Assembly (NCBI GenBank): GCA_000004985.1
Contig: GG739144.1
From: Naegleria gruberi
Taxonomy: Eukaryota
DNA length: 7,358 nt
Reading direction: 5' to 3' (one strand)
The notes under the pieces: model-generated
Database searches by the model: none
Told to the model about the DNA's origin: nothing
What the model saw: only the letters and a program-made list of their open reading frames with translations
Position numbers and translations under genes: made by a program
Shown here: in pieces, positions 1 to 7,358 of the stretch
Layout of the letters: each line of letters opens with the position of its first letter
Numbering within the stretch: position 1 is the first letter of the stretch

Positions 1-12
1 GAAGAAGATTGA

Positions 13-589
13 ATAAATTCCACTGGAGAGAAAAATTGTCAATGAACGTTAAACTTTTTTTTTCAATTTGCGAGCTAAAAATAGTAAATCAACATCTTTG
101 AGAGATTTGTTGGTCTTGCAAGTTTTTGAATTGTAAAGCAAAATCAAAATATGGACTCTGTCAAAGGCAATTTTATGGAAGAAACATCAATGGTAATGTT
201 TATACAAAAGAGATTTCTTGTTCACTAAGGAGCTCAATAGAGATACGAAACTCTTTTATGACTAGCAAAGAATAAGAGTTTGTTTGGTTTTTATTGAAAG
301 TCTCATTTCTTTAAACATATAGATGTATCATTTTGCATTAAAACAATAGATCTGTTGATATTTTTAATATTTTCTTTTGTTTCGAATAAACTTTTGTGGA
401 AATGCTTTGGAACTACATTCAACCAGATCAATAATTTCTCTTCCGAAACACTCCTTTCCTATATTTCCAAGATAAGAAAACATTCTCGTAATTCAACTTG
501 TCAAAAACCCAAAAAGTCCACTCTAGAAAAATTCGTCCACTTTCGTCCAACTTCACAACGGCAACATTTAAGCAATAACACAAAAAAAA
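13..589 (+). promoter_or_regulatory. Intergenic/promoter and 5' leader upstream of the kinase gene (T9 tract 55-63, GATAAG at 469-474, A9 tract 581-589 directly abutting the ATG)
   Basis: No ORF with coding character and stops in all frames. A T9 run at 55-63 follows a possible upstream stop at 10-12. The string 'caaaaaaaaATGtcc' has the A-rich -1..-9 context and Ser second codon typical of efficiently initiated yeast genes. Short direct repeat 'ttcgtccac/ttcgtccaac' at 532-550. No convincing TATA box found by eye. Confidence 0.35.
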
Positions 590-836
590 ATGTCCAAATA
601 CACACGAGAAGACTTTGACTTTCTCAAACAACTCGGCAAGGGAGCCTACAGTGAAGTTTTCCTAACCAAATACAAGAAATCCGGCACACACTACGCCACA
701 AAAGTCATCAAGAAGGATTTCGTCATTAAGGAGAAGAAAATCAATACGGTCAAGATGGAGAAGGAAGTTCTCAACATGTTGAGTCATCCGAATATAATTT
801 CATTGTTTTGTACCTATCAGGATAAGGATCATTTGT
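590..836 (+). CDS. PDK1/PKH-family serine/threonine protein kinase, first coding exon (partial gene; kinase subdomains I-IV: G-loop, catalytic Lys, alphaC)
   Basis: Translation MSKYTREDFDFLKQLGKGAYSEVFLTKYKKSGTHYATKVIKKDFVIKEKKINTVKMEKEVLNMLSHPNIISLFCTYQDKDHL. It contains the glycine-rich loop LGKGAYSEV, the VAIK-type Lys motif YATKVIKK, the PDK1/Pkh hallmark IIKEKK(V/I)xYV, HPNI and T(F/Y)QD. Fungal Pkh kinases at this position have D(E/K)xxLYF. Here the frame reads DKDHL and then switches to non-kinase residues (CRLLFFSKAL, stop at 866-868). The break coincides with gtaggt at 837-842, so I place a phase-1 splice donor after nt 836, with the T at 836 starting the expected Tyr codon. The rest of the kinase must lie in the N-masked block. 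Confidence 0.75.
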
Positions 837-880
837 GTAGGTTGTTGTTTTTTTCAAAGGCTTTGTGATATTTATTCATA

Positions 881-927
881 ATATTTAATATTTAATATTA
901 TTTAATATATTATTTAATAATTTTAAT
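881..927. repeat. Degenerate AT tandem repeat (units TATTTAATA / TTTAATA)
   Basis: Sequence atatttaatatttaatattatttaatatattatttaataattttaat contains about 5 iterations of a TATTTAAT(A) core. Confidence 0.6.
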
Positions 928-947
928 GATGATGATGGTAATGATGA
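927..947. repeat. (GAT)n trinucleotide microsatellite
   Basis: tgatgatgatggtaatgatga, about 6 GAT units with one interruption. Confidence 0.6.
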
Positions 948-1051
948 AACTCTGGCGGATGAATATACATGTTTATAATACCGATCAAAAAACTATTATA
1001 TATGATTTTTTGTTTTTGCGTGGATGATGGAATAACCAAATATGAATATTT

Positions 1052-1063
1052 TCATCATCATCA
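1052..1063. repeat. (TCA)n microsatellite, reverse complement of the 927-947 (GAT)n; further copy at 1141-1158
   Basis: tcatcatcatca at 1052-1063 and tcatcatcatatcatcat at 1141-1158. These are the inverted complement of the GAT repeat about 115 and 200 bp upstream, so they could form stem structures in DNA or RNA. Confidence 0.55.
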
Positions 1064-1194
1064 ACATTATAACAACTTTTTGATTTTTATTACAATATAA
1101 TACTATATAATACTCTTTAATATTATAATAATTATTACGTTCATCATCATATCATCATATATAAATTAAATATATAACTTAACGTCATACTTTG

Positions 1195-4100
1195 NNNNNN
1201 NNNNNNNNNNNNNNNNNNNNNNNNNNNNNNNNNNNNNNNNNNNNNNNNNNNNNNNNNNNNNNNNNNNNNNNNNNNNNNNNNNNNNNNNNNNNNNNNNNNN
1301 NNNNNNNNNNNNNNNNNNNNNNNNNNNNNNNNNNNNNNNNNNNNNNNNNNNNNNNNNNNNNNNNNNNNNNNNNNNNNNNNNNNNNNNNNNNNNNNNNNNN
1401 NNNNNNNNNNNNNNNNNNNNNNNNNNNNNNNNNNNNNNNNNNNNNNNNNNNNNNNNNNNNNNNNNNNNNNNNNNNNNNNNNNNNNNNNNNNNNNNNNNNN
1501 NNNNNNNNNNNNNNNNNNNNNNNNNNNNNNNNNNNNNNNNNNNNNNNNNNNNNNNNNNNNNNNNNNNNNNNNNNNNNNNNNNNNNNNNNNNNNNNNNNNN
1601 NNNNNNNNNNNNNNNNNNNNNNNNNNNNNNNNNNNNNNNNNNNNNNNNNNNNNNNNNNNNNNNNNNNNNNNNNNNNNNNNNNNNNNNNNNNNNNNNNNNN
1701 NNNNNNNNNNNNNNNNNNNNNNNNNNNNNNNNNNNNNNNNNNNNNNNNNNNNNNNNNNNNNNNNNNNNNNNNNNNNNNNNNNNNNNNNNNNNNNNNNNNN
1801 NNNNNNNNNNNNNNNNNNNNNNNNNNNNNNNNNNNNNNNNNNNNNNNNNNNNNNNNNNNNNNNNNNNNNNNNNNNNNNNNNNNNNNNNNNNNNNNNNNNN
1901 NNNNNNNNNNNNNNNNNNNNNNNNNNNNNNNNNNNNNNNNNNNNNNNNNNNNNNNNNNNNNNNNNNNNNNNNNNNNNNNNNNNNNNNNNNNNNNNNNNNN
2001 NNNNNNNNNNNNNNNNNNNNNNNNNNNNNNNNNNNNNNNNNNNNNNNNNNNNNNNNNNNNNNNNNNNNNNNNNNNNNNNNNNNNNNNNNNNNNNNNNNNN
2101 NNNNNNNNNNNNNNNNNNNNNNNNNNNNNNNNNNNNNNNNNNNNNNNNNNNNNNNNNNNNNNNNNNNNNNNNNNNNNNNNNNNNNNNNNNNNNNNNNNNN
2201 NNNNNNNNNNNNNNNNNNNNNNNNNNNNNNNNNNNNNNNNNNNNNNNNNNNNNNNNNNNNNNNNNNNNNNNNNNNNNNNNNNNNNNNNNNNNNNNNNNNN
2301 NNNNNNNNNNNNNNNNNNNNNNNNNNNNNNNNNNNNNNNNNNNNNNNNNNNNNNNNNNNNNNNNNNNNNNNNNNNNNNNNNNNNNNNNNNNNNNNNNNNN
2401 NNNNNNNNNNNNNNNNNNNNNNNNNNNNNNNNNNNNNNNNNNNNNNNNNNNNNNNNNNNNNNNNNNNNNNNNNNNNNNNNNNNNNNNNNNNNNNNNNNNN
2501 NNNNNNNNNNNNNNNNNNNNNNNNNNNNNNNNNNNNNNNNNNNNNNNNNNNNNNNNNNNNNNNNNNNNNNNNNNNNNNNNNNNNNNNNNNNNNNNNNNNN
2601 NNNNNNNNNNNNNNNNNNNNNNNNNNNNNNNNNNNNNNNNNNNNNNNNNNNNNNNNNNNNNNNNNNNNNNNNNNNNNNNNNNNNNNNNNNNNNNNNNNNN
2701 NNNNNNNNNNNNNNNNNNNNNNNNNNNNNNNNNNNNNNNNNNNNNNNNNNNNNNNNNNNNNNNNNNNNNNNNNNNNNNNNNNNNNNNNNNNNNNNNNNNN
2801 NNNNNNNNNNNNNNNNNNNNNNNNNNNNNNNNNNNNNNNNNNNNNNNNNNNNNNNNNNNNNNNNNNNNNNNNNNNNNNNNNNNNNNNNNNNNNNNNNNNN
2901 NNNNNNNNNNNNNNNNNNNNNNNNNNNNNNNNNNNNNNNNNNNNNNNNNNNNNNNNNNNNNNNNNNNNNNNNNNNNNNNNNNNNNNNNNNNNNNNNNNNN
3001 NNNNNNNNNNNNNNNNNNNNNNNNNNNNNNNNNNNNNNNNNNNNNNNNNNNNNNNNNNNNNNNNNNNNNNNNNNNNNNNNNNNNNNNNNNNNNNNNNNNN
3101 NNNNNNNNNNNNNNNNNNNNNNNNNNNNNNNNNNNNNNNNNNNNNNNNNNNNNNNNNNNNNNNNNNNNNNNNNNNNNNNNNNNNNNNNNNNNNNNNNNNN
3201 NNNNNNNNNNNNNNNNNNNNNNNNNNNNNNNNNNNNNNNNNNNNNNNNNNNNNNNNNNNNNNNNNNNNNNNNNNNNNNNNNNNNNNNNNNNNNNNNNNNN
3301 NNNNNNNNNNNNNNNNNNNNNNNNNNNNNNNNNNNNNNNNNNNNNNNNNNNNNNNNNNNNNNNNNNNNNNNNNNNNNNNNNNNNNNNNNNNNNNNNNNNN
3401 NNNNNNNNNNNNNNNNNNNNNNNNNNNNNNNNNNNNNNNNNNNNNNNNNNNNNNNNNNNNNNNNNNNNNNNNNNNNNNNNNNNNNNNNNNNNNNNNNNNN
3501 NNNNNNNNNNNNNNNNNNNNNNNNNNNNNNNNNNNNNNNNNNNNNNNNNNNNNNNNNNNNNNNNNNNNNNNNNNNNNNNNNNNNNNNNNNNNNNNNNNNN
3601 NNNNNNNNNNNNNNNNNNNNNNNNNNNNNNNNNNNNNNNNNNNNNNNNNNNNNNNNNNNNNNNNNNNNNNNNNNNNNNNNNNNNNNNNNNNNNNNNNNNN
3701 NNNNNNNNNNNNNNNNNNNNNNNNNNNNNNNNNNNNNNNNNNNNNNNNNNNNNNNNNNNNNNNNNNNNNNNNNNNNNNNNNNNNNNNNNNNNNNNNNNNN
3801 NNNNNNNNNNNNNNNNNNNNNNNNNNNNNNNNNNNNNNNNNNNNNNNNNNNNNNNNNNNNNNNNNNNNNNNNNNNNNNNNNNNNNNNNNNNNNNNNNNNN
3901 NNNNNNNNNNNNNNNNNNNNNNNNNNNNNNNNNNNNNNNNNNNNNNNNNNNNNNNNNNNNNNNNNNNNNNNNNNNNNNNNNNNNNNNNNNNNNNNNNNNN
4001 NNNNNNNNNNNNNNNNNNNNNNNNNNNNNNNNNNNNNNNNNNNNNNNNNNNNNNNNNNNNNNNNNNNNNNNNNNNNNNNNNNNNNNNNNNNNNNNNNNNN

Positions 4101-6507
4101 NNNNNNNNNNNNNNNNNNNNNNNNNNNNNNNNNNNNNNNNNNNNNNNNNNNNNNNNNNNNNNNNNNNNNNNNNNNNNNNNNNNNNNNNNNNNNNNNNNNN
4201 NNNNNNNNNNNNNNNNNNNNNNNNNNNNNNNNNNNNNNNNNNNNNNNNNNNNNNNNNNNNNNNNNNNNNNNNNNNNNNNNNNNNNNNNNNNNNNNNNNNN
4301 NNNNNNNNNNNNNNNNNNNNNNNNNNNNNNNNNNNNNNNNNNNNNNNNNNNNNNNNNNNNNNNNNNNNNNNNNNNNNNNNNNNNNNNNNNNNNNNNNNNN
4401 NNNNNNNNNNNNNNNNNNNNNNNNNNNNNNNNNNNNNNNNNNNNNNNNNNNNNNNNNNNNNNNNNNNNNNNNNNNNNNNNNNNNNNNNNNNNNNNNNNNN
4501 NNNNNNNNNNNNNNNNNNNNNNNNNNNNNNNNNNNNNNNNNNNNNNNNNNNNNNNNNNNNNNNNNNNNNNNNNNNNNNNNNNNNNNNNNNNNNNNNNNNN
4601 NNNNNNNNNNNNNNNNNNNNNNNNNNNNNNNNNNNNNNNNNNNNNNNNNNNNNNNNNNNNNNNNNNNNNNNNNNNNNNNNNNNNNNNNNNNNNNNNNNNN
4701 NNNNNNNNNNNNNNNNNNNNNNNNNNNNNNNNNNNNNNNNNNNNNNNNNNNNNNNNNNNNNNNNNNNNNNNNNNNNNNNNNNNNNNNNNNNNNNNNNNNN
4801 NNNNNNNNNNNNNNNNNNNNNNNNNNNNNNNNNNNNNNNNNNNNNNNNNNNNNNNNNNNNNNNNNNNNNNNNNNNNNNNNNNNNNNNNNNNNNNNNNNNN
4901 NNNNNNNNNNNNNNNNNNNNNNNNNNNNNNNNNNNNNNNNNNNNNNNNNNNNNNNNNNNNNNNNNNNNNNNNNNNNNNNNNNNNNNNNNNNNNNNNNNNN
5001 NNNNNNNNNNNNNNNNNNNNNNNNNNNNNNNNNNNNNNNNNNNNNNNNNNNNNNNNNNNNNNNNNNNNNNNNNNNNNNNNNNNNNNNNNNNNNNNNNNNN
5101 NNNNNNNNNNNNNNNNNNNNNNNNNNNNNNNNNNNNNNNNNNNNNNNNNNNNNNNNNNNNNNNNNNNNNNNNNNNNNNNNNNNNNNNNNNNNNNNNNNNN
5201 NNNNNNNNNNNNNNNNNNNNNNNNNNNNNNNNNNNNNNNNNNNNNNNNNNNNNNNNNNNNNNNNNNNNNNNNNNNNNNNNNNNNNNNNNNNNNNNNNNNN
5301 NNNNNNNNNNNNNNNNNNNNNNNNNNNNNNNNNNNNNNNNNNNNNNNNNNNNNNNNNNNNNNNNNNNNNNNNNNNNNNNNNNNNNNNNNNNNNNNNNNNN
5401 NNNNNNNNNNNNNNNNNNNNNNNNNNNNNNNNNNNNNNNNNNNNNNNNNNNNNNNNNNNNNNNNNNNNNNNNNNNNNNNNNNNNNNNNNNNNNNNNNNNN
5501 NNNNNNNNNNNNNNNNNNNNNNNNNNNNNNNNNNNNNNNNNNNNNNNNNNNNNNNNNNNNNNNNNNNNNNNNNNNNNNNNNNNNNNNNNNNNNNNNNNNN
5601 NNNNNNNNNNNNNNNNNNNNNNNNNNNNNNNNNNNNNNNNNNNNNNNNNNNNNNNNNNNNNNNNNNNNNNNNNNNNNNNNNNNNNNNNNNNNNNNNNNNN
5701 NNNNNNNNNNNNNNNNNNNNNNNNNNNNNNNNNNNNNNNNNNNNNNNNNNNNNNNNNNNNNNNNNNNNNNNNNNNNNNNNNNNNNNNNNNNNNNNNNNNN
5801 NNNNNNNNNNNNNNNNNNNNNNNNNNNNNNNNNNNNNNNNNNNNNNNNNNNNNNNNNNNNNNNNNNNNNNNNNNNNNNNNNNNNNNNNNNNNNNNNNNNN
5901 NNNNNNNNNNNNNNNNNNNNNNNNNNNNNNNNNNNNNNNNNNNNNNNNNNNNNNNNNNNNNNNNNNNNNNNNNNNNNNNNNNNNNNNNNNNNNNNNNNNN
6001 NNNNNNNNNNNNNNNNNNNNNNNNNNNNNNNNNNNNNNNNNNNNNNNNNNNNNNNNNNNNNNNNNNNNNNNNNNNNNNNNNNNNNNNNNNNNNNNNNNNN
6101 NNNNNNNNNNNNNNNNNNNNNNNNNNNNNNNNNNNNNNNNNNNNNNNNNNNNNNNNNNNNNNNNNNNNNNNNNNNNNNNNNNNNNNNNNNNNNNNNNNNN
6201 NNNNNNNNNNNNNNNNNNNNNNNNNNNNNNNNNNNNNNNNNNNNNNNNNNNNNNNNNNNNNNNNNNNNNNNNNNNNNNNNNNNNNNNNNNNNNNNNNNNN
6301 NNNNNNNNNNNNNNNNNNNNNNNNNNNNNNNNNNNNNNNNNNNNNNNNNNNNNNNNNNNNNNNNNNNNNNNNNNNNNNNNNNNNNNNNNNNNNNNNNNNN
6401 NNNNNNNNNNNNNNNNNNNNNNNNNNNNNNNNNNNNNNNNNNNNNNNNNNNNNNNNNNNNNNNNNNNNNNNNNNNNNNNNNNNNNNNNNNNNNNNNNNNN
6501 NNNNNNN
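1195..6507. other. N-masked block / assembly gap (5,313 N)
   Basis: Uninterrupted run of n from 1195 to 6507. Its length is a multiple of 3, which is why the ORF caller produced a 1793-aa poly-X 'protein'. Confidence 0.99.
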
Positions 6508-6550
6508 AATTTTGATAATGTAATATTAAAGATATTGATAATTGGGTATA

Positions 6551-6572
6551 GGGAAACGGAATTTCCTAATTA
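6551..6572. repeat. Copy A of a short GGGAAACGGAATTTCC...AATTA motif family (imperfect palindrome GGAAA-n5-TTTCC)
   Basis: gggaaacggaatttcctaatta shares the GGG(A/T)AACGGAA core with 6668-6680 and 6712-6724, and the GGAA(A/T)TTCC(C/T)AAATTA half with 6829-6848. Confidence 0.45.
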
Positions 6573-6664
6573 GGAGTCATCACAATAAAATTTATTCATT
6601 AATGATGTTCACAAACTTTGAATTAACACATTACATGATGAATTACATTTTCAAACAATTTACT

Positions 6665-6733
6665 ATCGGGTAACGGAAATTAATACATCCATAACATTAA
6701 ATATTAACCATCGGGTAACGGATTTTAATACAT
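6665..6733. repeat. 24-bp direct repeat pair (atcgggtaacggaaattaatacat at 6665-6688; atcgggtaacggattttaatacat at 6710-6733; 22/24 identical, 45-bp period)
   Basis: Read directly from the sequence. The two copies differ only by aa versus tt in the middle. The intervening 21 bp are unrelated. Confidence 0.8.
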
Positions 6734-6816
6734 GTACAGTATGTTTATAATTGGTCGACGCACAGAAATTTAAATAAAAAGAATTAACAATAATAAAAGC
6801 AAAATGCTCACAACAT

Positions 6817-6848
6817 TGGAGAACGGGAAATGAAATTCCCAAATTAAA
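6817..6848. repeat. Copy D of the motif family: AACGGGAAATGAAATTCCCAAATTAAATT (imperfect palindrome GGGAA-n6-TTCCC)
   Basis: ggagaacgggaaatgaaattcccaaattaaatt; the outer GGGAA/TTCCC arms are inverted repeats. Confidence 0.45.
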
Positions 6849-6890
6849 TTGAGAAACAACACAATCACAATAATTCATACTATCAAAATG

Positions 6891-6948
6891 AATTGAACCC
6901 GGGTCACGGCGATGGCAACGCCGTATTCTACCACTAAACCATCGACGC
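6891..6948 (-). tRNA. tRNA-Gly(GCC), 3'-truncated: nt 1 through the T-loop (58 nt) present, 3' T-stem strand and 3' acceptor strand absent; probable pseudogene/fragment
   Basis: Minus strand reads GCGTCGA TG GTTT AGTGGTAG AATA CGGCG TTGCCAT CGCCG TGAC CCGGG TTCAATT. This gives a 7-nt acceptor 5' strand, a D arm with the fungal GGTTTAGTGGTA pattern, an anticodon stem CGGCG/CGCCG, loop TTGCCAT with anticodon GCC, a T-stem 5' strand CCGGG and T-loop TTCAATT. The next bases are CATTTTGATA instead of the required CCCGG+TCGACGC(A), so the cloverleaf cannot close. It is very similar to fungal tRNA-Gly(GCC) as recalled from memory. Confidence 0.7.
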
Positions 6949-7064
6949 TTCACATTTAATAAGTAATTATTCTTGATTGATAACTAAAGTTATTTAACAA
7001 TTGAGTTACAAAATCAATTTCAAAATCGACAACAGTCACAAACAAAGTTAAAAAAATCAGAACA

Positions 7065-7358
7065 ATGATCACCACCAACAATTCCTCCACCAAAAAACAC
7101 TCAAATTGTCCCACCTCTTTCTTTCAAGTTGATGATTTCCACAAGAAACATTCAACTTTTAATACCTATCCCTATGATCCCTCTCAATTCCGAAATCAAT
7201 ATGATGATTGTCTAGAAAAGGCTGATTATAAGAAAATTAAAAGGCTCCGAATACTTGTTCAGAGACAAACAATTGATATTTGTAGGGATCAATACTATTT
7301 GTACAATTTTAAAAATCATAGAAATTCTAAAAATCAAATTGATGATGATGAAATGTAG
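7065..7358 (+). CDS. Hypothetical small protein (97 aa), N-terminal Ser/Thr/Asn-rich, no recognisable domain
   Basis: ATG at 7065 in an A-rich context (acaATGa). Open for 97 codons to TAG at 7356-7358, which is exactly the window end. Codon choice (ACC, TCC, AAC, CAC) resembles the kinase exon. No homology recognised. It could also be the first exon of a longer gene. Confidence 0.45.
   Translation: MITTNNSSTKKHSNCPTSFFQVDDFHKKHSTFNTYPYDPSQFRNQYDDCLEKADYKKIKRLRILVQRQTIDICRDQYYLYNFKNHRNSKNQIDDDEM

What the first reader, a model, noticed from the sequence alone, without database searches (positions are those of the whole stretch)
1195..6507. 72% of the window is masked: the rest of the kinase gene, and anything else in this locus, is invisible
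The only region large enough to hold a multi-gene system is a 5.3-kb run of N. The kinase exon at 590-836 must continue into it, since a Pkh-type kinase needs at least about 0.8 kb more for the catalytic domain and typically 2-3 kb in total. That leaves roughly 2-4 kb of unknown content. The track's 1793-aa ORF is purely an artefact. The asymmetry of the flanks (a gene start on the left; a repeat-rich, tRNA-fragment-bearing intergenic region on the right) suggests the block contains at least one gene end plus additional sequence. No claim about a novel system can be made without it.
Basis: seen in the sequence. Interest (0 to 1): 0.5.

Follow-up and report, generated by a model that had tools for sequence, protein, structure and literature searches.

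The report
Assembly gap inside a Naegleria locus
The 5.3-kb run of N is a placeholder, not biology: it covers the rest of an already annotated PDK1 kinase gene of the amoeba Naegleria gruberi and a few ordinary neighbouring genes, about 83% of which can be read from a near-identical public contig.

Summary
The N run is real: exactly 1195-6507, 5313 N, the only one in the window. It is not a biological feature.

The visible exon (590-836) is 100% identical to the N-terminus of XP_002672410.1, the annotated 3-phosphoinositide-dependent kinase-1 of Naegleria gruberi. The locus is therefore heterolobosean, not fungal.

A 4406-bp ENA metagenome contig (L030) overlaps the last 21 nt before the N run at 100% and reads 4385 nt into it:
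- Exon 2 starts 10 nt inside the gap.
- PDK1 exons 2-4 project to about 1205-2498.
- A 259-aa ORF and a His-box membrane-protein gene follow on the minus strand.
- A 5S rRNA gene follows on the plus strand.

About 0.9 kb stays unseen.

Window exon 1 joined to the L030 exons gives a 479-aa protein with a complete kinase domain and a PDK1-type PH domain.

The fungal assumption is wrong. Whether the N run is a size-estimated scaffold gap (my preference) or an applied mask cannot be settled here.

Nothing novel; interest is very low.

The parts
1..589 (.). Upstream non-coding region (29.7% GC) with no credible ORF. It is not conserved with the other Naegleria loci.
590..836 (+). Exon 1 of the PDK1 gene (82 codons plus the first base of Tyr83). 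It is 100% identical to residues 1-82 of N. gruberi XP_002672410.1.
837..1194 (+). Visible 5' part of intron 1 (GTAGGT donor, 20% GC, ATG/CAT triplet runs). The intron has the same position and phase as in the other Naegleria orthologues. Its last 21 nt (1174-1194) are identical to L030 1-21.
1195..6507 (.). Run of 5313 N, a placeholder for unsequenced or masked DNA.
1205..2498 (+). PROJECTED from L030 (window = L030 + 1173), not visible in the window: PDK1 exon 2 at 1205-1359, exon 3 at 1415-2350, exon 4 at 2397-2498 (TAA stop), with introns of 55 and 46 nt. 1195-1204 is the end of intron 1 (AAAAAAACAG).
2632..3411 (-). PROJECTED from L030 1459-2238: a 259-aa ORF with no Pfam match.
3733..5097 (-). 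PROJECTED from L030 2560-3924: a gene read as three ORF pieces with His-box motifs (HELEH, HLRHH, HIIHH). Its similarity to FA_desaturase is weak and below threshold.
5480..5579 (+). PROJECTED from L030 4307-4406: a 5S rRNA gene, model positions 1-101 of 120, cut by the contig end. Window 5580-6507 remains unseen.
6541..6733 (+). Three copies of a 31-nt direct repeat (core ATCGGGTAACGGA..TTAATACAT) in the AT-rich spacer.
6878..6949 (-). tRNA-Gly(GCC) 5' fragment. The first 59 nt (6949-6891) are tRNA-like up to the T loop and the 3' part is degenerate.
7065..7358 (+). N-terminal coding part (97 codons) of a protein whose relatives carry a C-terminal microbial-type PARG domain (PF10021). The rest lies beyond the window end.

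Best explanation
The N run stands in for about 5.3 kb of ordinary nuclear DNA of Naegleria gruberi. It has no function; it is a bookkeeping element of an assembly.

Content, shown by homology and a direct overlap. The block begins 10 nt before exon 2 of the PDK1 gene, and exons 2-4 fill roughly the first 1.3 kb. Two unrelated protein-coding genes follow on the opposite strand, then a 5S rRNA gene. About 0.9 kb is still unknown before the visible tRNA-Gly fragment.

Origin of the N run, inferred. The window is most likely a whole small scaffold made of two read-sized contigs (1194 and 851 bp). They would be joined by paired clone ends, with the gap length (5313) estimated from the clone insert size. 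This is typical of the Sanger whole-genome assembly of N. gruberi.

The confidence of 0.8 is for the content and the non-biological nature of the block. The sub-claim 'sized gap rather than mask' is about 0.6.
For: - Identity of the locus. Exon 1 matches P0007 (XP_002672410.1, N. gruberi PDK1) at 82 of 82 residues.
- Overlap. L030 nt 1-21 equal window 1174-1194 at 100% (E 8e-6, end to end). An acceptor site and exon 2 follow directly. L030 encodes P0007 at 98-100% identity.
- Reading frame. Window exon 1 plus L030 exons 2-4 gives an in-frame 479-aa protein. It covers Pkinase positions 3-263 of 263 (E 6e-65) and PH_3 positions 2-103 of 104 (E 8e-36). Human PDK1 is the best solved structure, at E 1e-69 against 2e-48 for the next non-PDK1/Pkh kinase, PKC theta.
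- Conserved intron. Intron 1 has the same position and phase in two other Naegleria orthologues.
- Gap length. L030 runs 4385 nt without reaching the right flank, which fits a gap of at least 4.4 kb.
- Evidence for a gap rather than a repeat mask. The length is not round. The flanks are read-sized. The two flanks of the artefact ORF are unequal (1191 and 785 nt), which suggests both are scaffold ends. The left edge falls inside an intron, not at a feature boundary. AT-rich simple sequence next to the run is unmasked. The projected content is mostly unique coding DNA.
- Assembly type. The N. gruberi reference is a Sanger assembly (PMC9928731, Table 1).
Against: - The right junction was never bridged. 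No sequence links the 5S gene to window 6508, so collinearity and the true gap length are unverified.
- The reference gene model XP_002672410.1 contains exons 2-4. The reference 310-kb scaffold therefore has this sequence. If the window was cut from that scaffold, the N run must be a mask applied later rather than a gap.
- The source record of the window was not found in any searchable collection.
- L030 comes from a metagenome and differs from the reference protein at 2 residues, so it is a close strain or allele and not the same molecule.
- The JGI plasmid insert sizes are recalled from memory, not checked.
Confidence: 0.8

Rival explanations
1. The N run is a deliberate mask laid over sequenced DNA by the data provider or the scanning pipeline, not an assembly gap.
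For: The annotated N. gruberi protein P0007 includes exons that lie under the N run, so the sequence exists in the reference assembly. The description of the genome-contig collection says some stretches are masked as N. The run length is a multiple of 3 (5313 = 3 x 1771), though that has a 1 in 3 chance.
Against: The mask edges match no feature. It starts 10 nt before exon 2 inside an intron and leaves exon 1 visible. It would cover four unrelated genes plus a 5S gene. Low-complexity sequence right next to it (880-1190) is not masked, and about 80% of the projected content is unique coding DNA, so it is not a repeat mask. The window was not found in the collections said to carry masks.
Confidence: 0.3
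2. The scaffold is a mis-join. The left contig (PDK1 start) and the right contig (tRNA fragment, PARG-like gene) are not neighbours, so the N run corresponds to no real interval.
For: No sequence bridges the right junction. L030 ends in a multi-copy 5S rRNA gene, and the right flank carries a tRNA fragment and short repeats, the kind of sequence that misleads scaffolders. The right flank matches nothing near PDK1 in N. lovaniensis or the L001/L002 species.
Against: L030 shows that N. gruberi-type synteny downstream of PDK1 differs from N. lovaniensis in any case, so absence there says little. The 4385 nt of L030 fit inside 5313 with room for the rest of the 5S gene and a spacer.
Confidence: 0.1
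3. One reading: a fungal locus with a Pkh-type kinase, where the block could hide a multi-gene system of interest.
For: Candida albicans Pkh (4c0t) is the top solved-structure hit for exon 1 alone. The AT-rich flanks resemble some fungi.
Against: Exon 1 is 100% identical to a Naegleria gruberi protein. The next relatives are N. lovaniensis (86% to the L002 orthologue) and Willaertia magna (63%). The projected content is unrelated housekeeping-type genes on both strands, not a system.
Confidence: 0.02

Closest known systems
Naegleria gruberi 3-phosphoinositide-dependent protein kinase-1 (XP_002672410.1 / EFC39666.1 / UniRef100_D2VUC2)
   Same: Residues 1-82 are identical to the window's exon 1. 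The continuation in L030 matches the rest at 98-100%.
   Different: The deposited 398-aa model splices out the Ser-rich linker and uses a different last exon junction. The 479-aa reconstruction keeps the linker and restores a full PH_3 domain, as in N. lovaniensis (521 aa).
Human PDK1 (PDB 1H1W, 3NAX) and fungal Pkh kinases (Candida albicans Pkh, PDB 4C0T)
   Same: An AGC kinase domain. The composite protein has human PDK1 as its best solved match (E 1e-69). It has a PDK1-type C-terminal PH domain and the VGTAxYVSPE activation segment.
   Different: Only the N-lobe (subdomains I-IV) is visible in the window itself. The protein has no long N- or C-terminal extensions like those of yeast Pkh1/2.
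Size-estimated (clone-spanned) scaffold gaps in Sanger whole-genome shotgun assemblies
   Same: A non-round N count, read-sized flanking contigs, and a total length (7358) in the range of a plasmid insert.
   Different: No AGP or linkage record could be consulted, so this is an inference.

Membership tests
PDK1/Pkh subfamily of AGC protein kinases | Kinase N-lobe: glycine-rich loop, catalytic Lys in an (A/V)xK motif, alpha-C Glu | tested here: met
   Window 590-835 has GKGAYS, YATKVI and MEKEVL. It matches Pkinase positions 2-73 of 263, E 1e-13.
PDK1/Pkh subfamily of AGC protein kinases | Complete catalytic core (HRDLKPEN, DFG, S/APE) | tested here: met
   Not visible in the window because it lies under the N run. 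It is present in the overlapping contig L030 (HRDLK|PENLIL, ITDFGTAK, YVSPEIL). The composite covers Pkinase 3-263 of 263, E 6e-65.
PDK1/Pkh subfamily of AGC protein kinases | C-terminal PDK1-type PH domain (PF14593) | tested here: met
   Composite residues 374-475 match PH_3 positions 2-103 of 104, E 8e-36. All of this comes from L030, not from the window.
PDK1/Pkh subfamily of AGC protein kinases | Closer to PDK1 than to other AGC kinases | tested here: met
   Human PDK1 chains score E about 1e-69, against 2e-48 for PKC theta and about 1e-45 for Akt. Database relatives are named PDK1.
PDK1/Pkh subfamily of AGC protein kinases | PIF-pocket docking site and phosphoinositide binding | not tested
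   No residue-level or structural analysis was done.
Size-estimated scaffold gap | Uninterrupted N run whose flanks are collinear with continuous sequence elsewhere | tested here: inconclusive
   The left junction is met: a 21-nt exact overlap plus an in-frame continuation. The right junction was not bridged, because L030 ends 0.9 kb short in a 5S gene.
Size-estimated scaffold gap | Recorded linkage evidence (AGP, paired ends) | not testable with these tools
   The source record was not found.
Repeat or low-complexity hard mask | Masked content is repetitive, and comparable repeats nearby are also masked | tested here: not met
   The projected content is mostly unique coding DNA. AT-rich simple sequence at 880-1190 and the 31-nt repeats at 6541-6733 are unmasked.
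Functional tRNA-Gly(GCC) gene | Complete cloverleaf with paired T stem and acceptor stem, scoring above the Rfam gathering score | tested here: not met
   It scores 21.2 bits against 29. The 3' halves of the T stem and acceptor stem are mismatched. ARAGORN still calls it.

The most novel reading that the evidence does not exclude
The unseen 0.9 kb and the right flank may form a cluster of pol III-related sequence: a 5S rRNA gene, a 59-nt tRNA-Gly 5' fragment and three 31-nt direct repeats. That could mark an undescribed tRNA-derived SINE or another mobile insertion in Naegleria. Alternatively, the small scaffold could be a structurally divergent haplotype of the PDK1 locus.
Probability: 0.05. 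Interest if true: 0.2.

Novelty: not a real feature. Interest (0 to 1): 0.03.

Why it matters
It matters only as housekeeping. The 1793-aa 'ORF' and the 'hidden system' possibility can be dismissed. The locus should be relabelled from fungal to Naegleria gruberi. The gene under the gap is an already annotated PDK1 orthologue with ordinary neighbours. The case also shows that an N block can often be read through using near-identical public contigs.

Tried and rejected
- Exact-product look-ups for four window ORFs found nothing.
- Scans for the window's own sequence found nothing in genome contigs (peptide patterns, a 42-mer from the right flank) or in viral contigs.
- The metagenome-contig scan returned only relatives of 63% identity or less, many from 15-19% GC genomes, probably anaerobic fungi, which are distant.
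- The first protein search with the 82-aa exon returned only short ORF fragments. It missed the 100%-identical N. gruberi protein, which surfaced only when the spliced L002 orthologue was used as the query.
- A look-up of P0007's contig failed.
- A literature search for the sample and contig accessions found nothing.
- The word-index search for the 97-aa ORF found nothing. The exhaustive HMMER search did.
- I first considered Glomeromycota, Dictyostelia, ciliates and Neocallimastigomycota as the source. All were dropped once the Naegleria hits appeared.
- A rough splice of the His-box gene gave no Pfam hit, so the 'desaturase-like' label stays weak.
- The 31-nt repeat has no copy in any fetched locus.
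Full report
OBSERVATION

The window contains one uninterrupted run of N at 1195-6507. That is 5313 bases, or 72% of the 7358. Only 2045 bases are readable, at 29% GC. The 1793-aa ORF at 1192-6573 is one TTG codon, 1771 X codons and 21 real codons, so it is an artefact.

VISIBLE FLANKS

Left flank:
- 1-589 has no credible ORF.
- 590-836 encodes 82 residues plus one base. They match the protein-kinase profile at positions 2-73 of 263 (E 1e-13). AGC kinases are the best solved-structure matches, led by Candida Pkh, PKC theta and PDK1.
- A GTAGGT donor follows at 837. 837-1194 is 20% GC simple sequence with no kinase-like frame.

Right flank:
- 6508-6877 is an AT-rich spacer with three copies of a 31-nt direct repeat.
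- 6949-6878 on the minus strand is a tRNA-Gly(GCC). It is tRNA-like for its first 59 nt, up to the T loop, and then degenerate (21.2 bits against a gathering score of 29).
- 7065-7358 is a 97-codon ORF. An exhaustive HMMER search found relatives (best E 3e-12) that align over their N-terminal 80-90 residues. Those relatives carry a C-terminal microbial-type PARG domain, PF10021. This is therefore the start of a real gene that runs off the window.

WHOSE DNA IS IT

A search with the exon alone returned only short ORF fragments from metagenomes. The best was 90% identical (P0001), on contigs L001 and L002.

I built the L002 gene model by hand. It has four exons, introns of 384, 141 and 207 nt, and a 502-aa product. 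Intron 1 sits at exactly the same codon position and phase as in the window.

Searching with that spliced protein gave Naegleria lovaniensis (86%), Naegleria gruberi (86% over 61% of the query) and Willaertia magna (63%) as the nearest named proteins.

The N. gruberi protein is P0007 (XP_002672410.1, EFC39666.1, '3-phosphoinositide-dependent protein kinase-1', 398 aa, on a 310,422-bp scaffold). It begins with 82 residues that are identical to the window's exon 1. The window is therefore N. gruberi or a nearly identical strain. It is a heterolobosean amoeba, not a fungus.

READING INTO THE N RUN

P0009 is a 311-aa ORF fragment identical to P0007 across its kinase-domain part. It lies on a 4406-bp ENA metagenome contig, L030.

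L030 nt 1-21 (ATAACTTAACGTCATACTTTG) equal window 1174-1194 exactly. The match runs end to end with the last bases before the N run (E 8e-6). L030 then reads AAAAAAACAG followed by ATTTTGTGTTGGAATTGGCT..., which is the intron-1 acceptor and exon 2.

With the offset window = L030 + 1173, the projection is as follows:
- End of intron 1: 1195-1204
- Exon 2: 1205-1359
- Intron 2: 55 nt
- Exon 3: 1415-2350
- Intron 3: 46 nt
- Exon 4: 2397-2498, ending in TAA

The split codon T|AT gives the Tyr83 seen in P0007. L030 encodes P0007 at 98-100% identity.

Window exon 1 joined to L030 exons 2-4 is in frame and encodes 479 aa. It has a complete kinase domain (Pkinase 3-263 of 263, E 6e-65) and a PDK1-type PH domain (PH_3 2-103 of 104, E 8e-36). 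Human PDK1 structures are the best solved matches, at E about 1e-69 against 2e-48 for the next non-PDK1/Pkh kinase, PKC theta.

Beyond the kinase, L030 carries three more features:
- A 259-aa ORF on the minus strand (projected 2632-3411), with no Pfam match.
- A minus-strand gene read as three ORF pieces with His boxes (projected 3733-5097). Its similarity to fatty-acid desaturases is weak and below threshold.
- A 5S rRNA gene on the plus strand (projected 5480-5579), scoring 71 bits and cut by the contig end.

L030 accounts for 4385 of the 5313 hidden positions, about 83%. Roughly 0.9 kb (5580-6507) remains unseen. No sequence bridging to the right flank could be found.

GAP OR MASK

This cannot be settled with the tools at hand, because the source record was not found in any collection.

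I favour a size-estimated scaffold gap in a tiny two-contig scaffold, for these reasons:
- The N count is not round.
- The two contigs are read-sized (1194 and 851 bp).
- The flanks around the artefact ORF are unequal (1191 and 785 nt), as expected if both are scaffold ends.
- The left edge sits 10 nt before an exon, inside an intron, and not at any feature boundary.
- The adjacent simple sequence is unmasked.
- The projected content is mostly unique coding DNA, which rules out a repeat mask.
- The N. gruberi reference is a Sanger assembly (PMC9928731, Table 1).

From memory, JGI Sanger projects used plasmid libraries of about 8 kb, which fits the total of 7358 bp. I did not check this.

Against a gap: the reference gene model contains exons 2-4, so the 310-kb scaffold has this sequence. 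If the window was cut from that scaffold, the N run is a mask that was applied later.

A mis-join of the two flanks is a minor third possibility.

COMPARISON AND NOVELTY

The gene under the gap is an already annotated PDK1 orthologue. The deposited 398-aa model appears to splice out the Ser-rich linker and part of the PH domain. The 479-aa reconstruction agrees better with N. lovaniensis.

The neighbours are unrelated, ordinary genes on both strands. Nothing suggests a multi-gene system. The finding is an assembly or masking artefact lying over known sequence.

VERDICT

Interest is 0.03.

Noticed in passing
window 6878-6949 (-): A tRNA-Gly(GCC) that is a good tRNA for its first 59 nt, up to the T loop, and then continues into unrelated AT-rich sequence. 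It could be the head of a tRNA-derived SINE or a rearrangement breakpoint. ARAGORN calls it a gene, while Rfam scores it below threshold.
   Followed up: partly
window 6541-6571, 6658-6688, 6703-6733: Three copies of a 31-nt direct repeat (core ATCGGGTAACGGA..TTAATACAT) between the N run and the tRNA fragment. No copies occur in any of the 30 fetched loci.
   Followed up: partly
window 7065-7358 (+): A 97-codon ORF that is the N-terminal region of a protein family with a C-terminal microbial-type PARG (PF10021) domain. The terminal ATGTAG may be a GTAG... splice donor, so the 'stop' at the window end is probably intronic.
   Followed up: yes
L030 4307-4406 (projected window 5480-5579): A 5S rRNA gene lies about 0.9-1.3 kb from the tRNA-Gly fragment, so pol III-transcribed sequences are clustered here. 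The metagenome contig breaks inside the 5S gene, as expected for a multi-copy gene.
   Followed up: partly
P0007 vs L030 242-1325: The deposited N. gruberi PDK1 model (398 aa) skips the Ser-rich linker and ends ...HIQTVEEVKEQQKSKRM. The alternative splicing used here gives 479 aa with a full PH_3 domain, like N. lovaniensis. The public gene model is probably wrong in its 3' half.
   Followed up: partly
L029 vs L001/L002 vs L030/window: Gene order around PDK1 is conserved between N. lovaniensis and the unnamed Naegleria species of L001/L002 (GTPase, RGS, PDK1, OmdA-like, IQ). The N. gruberi-type locus differs on both sides of PDK1.
   Followed up: partly
The word-indexed protein search with the 82-aa exon missed full-length proteins with 100% (P0007) and about 88% (P0005) identical N-termini. 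It returned only short ORF fragments, so short queries seem to lose long targets.
   Followed up: no
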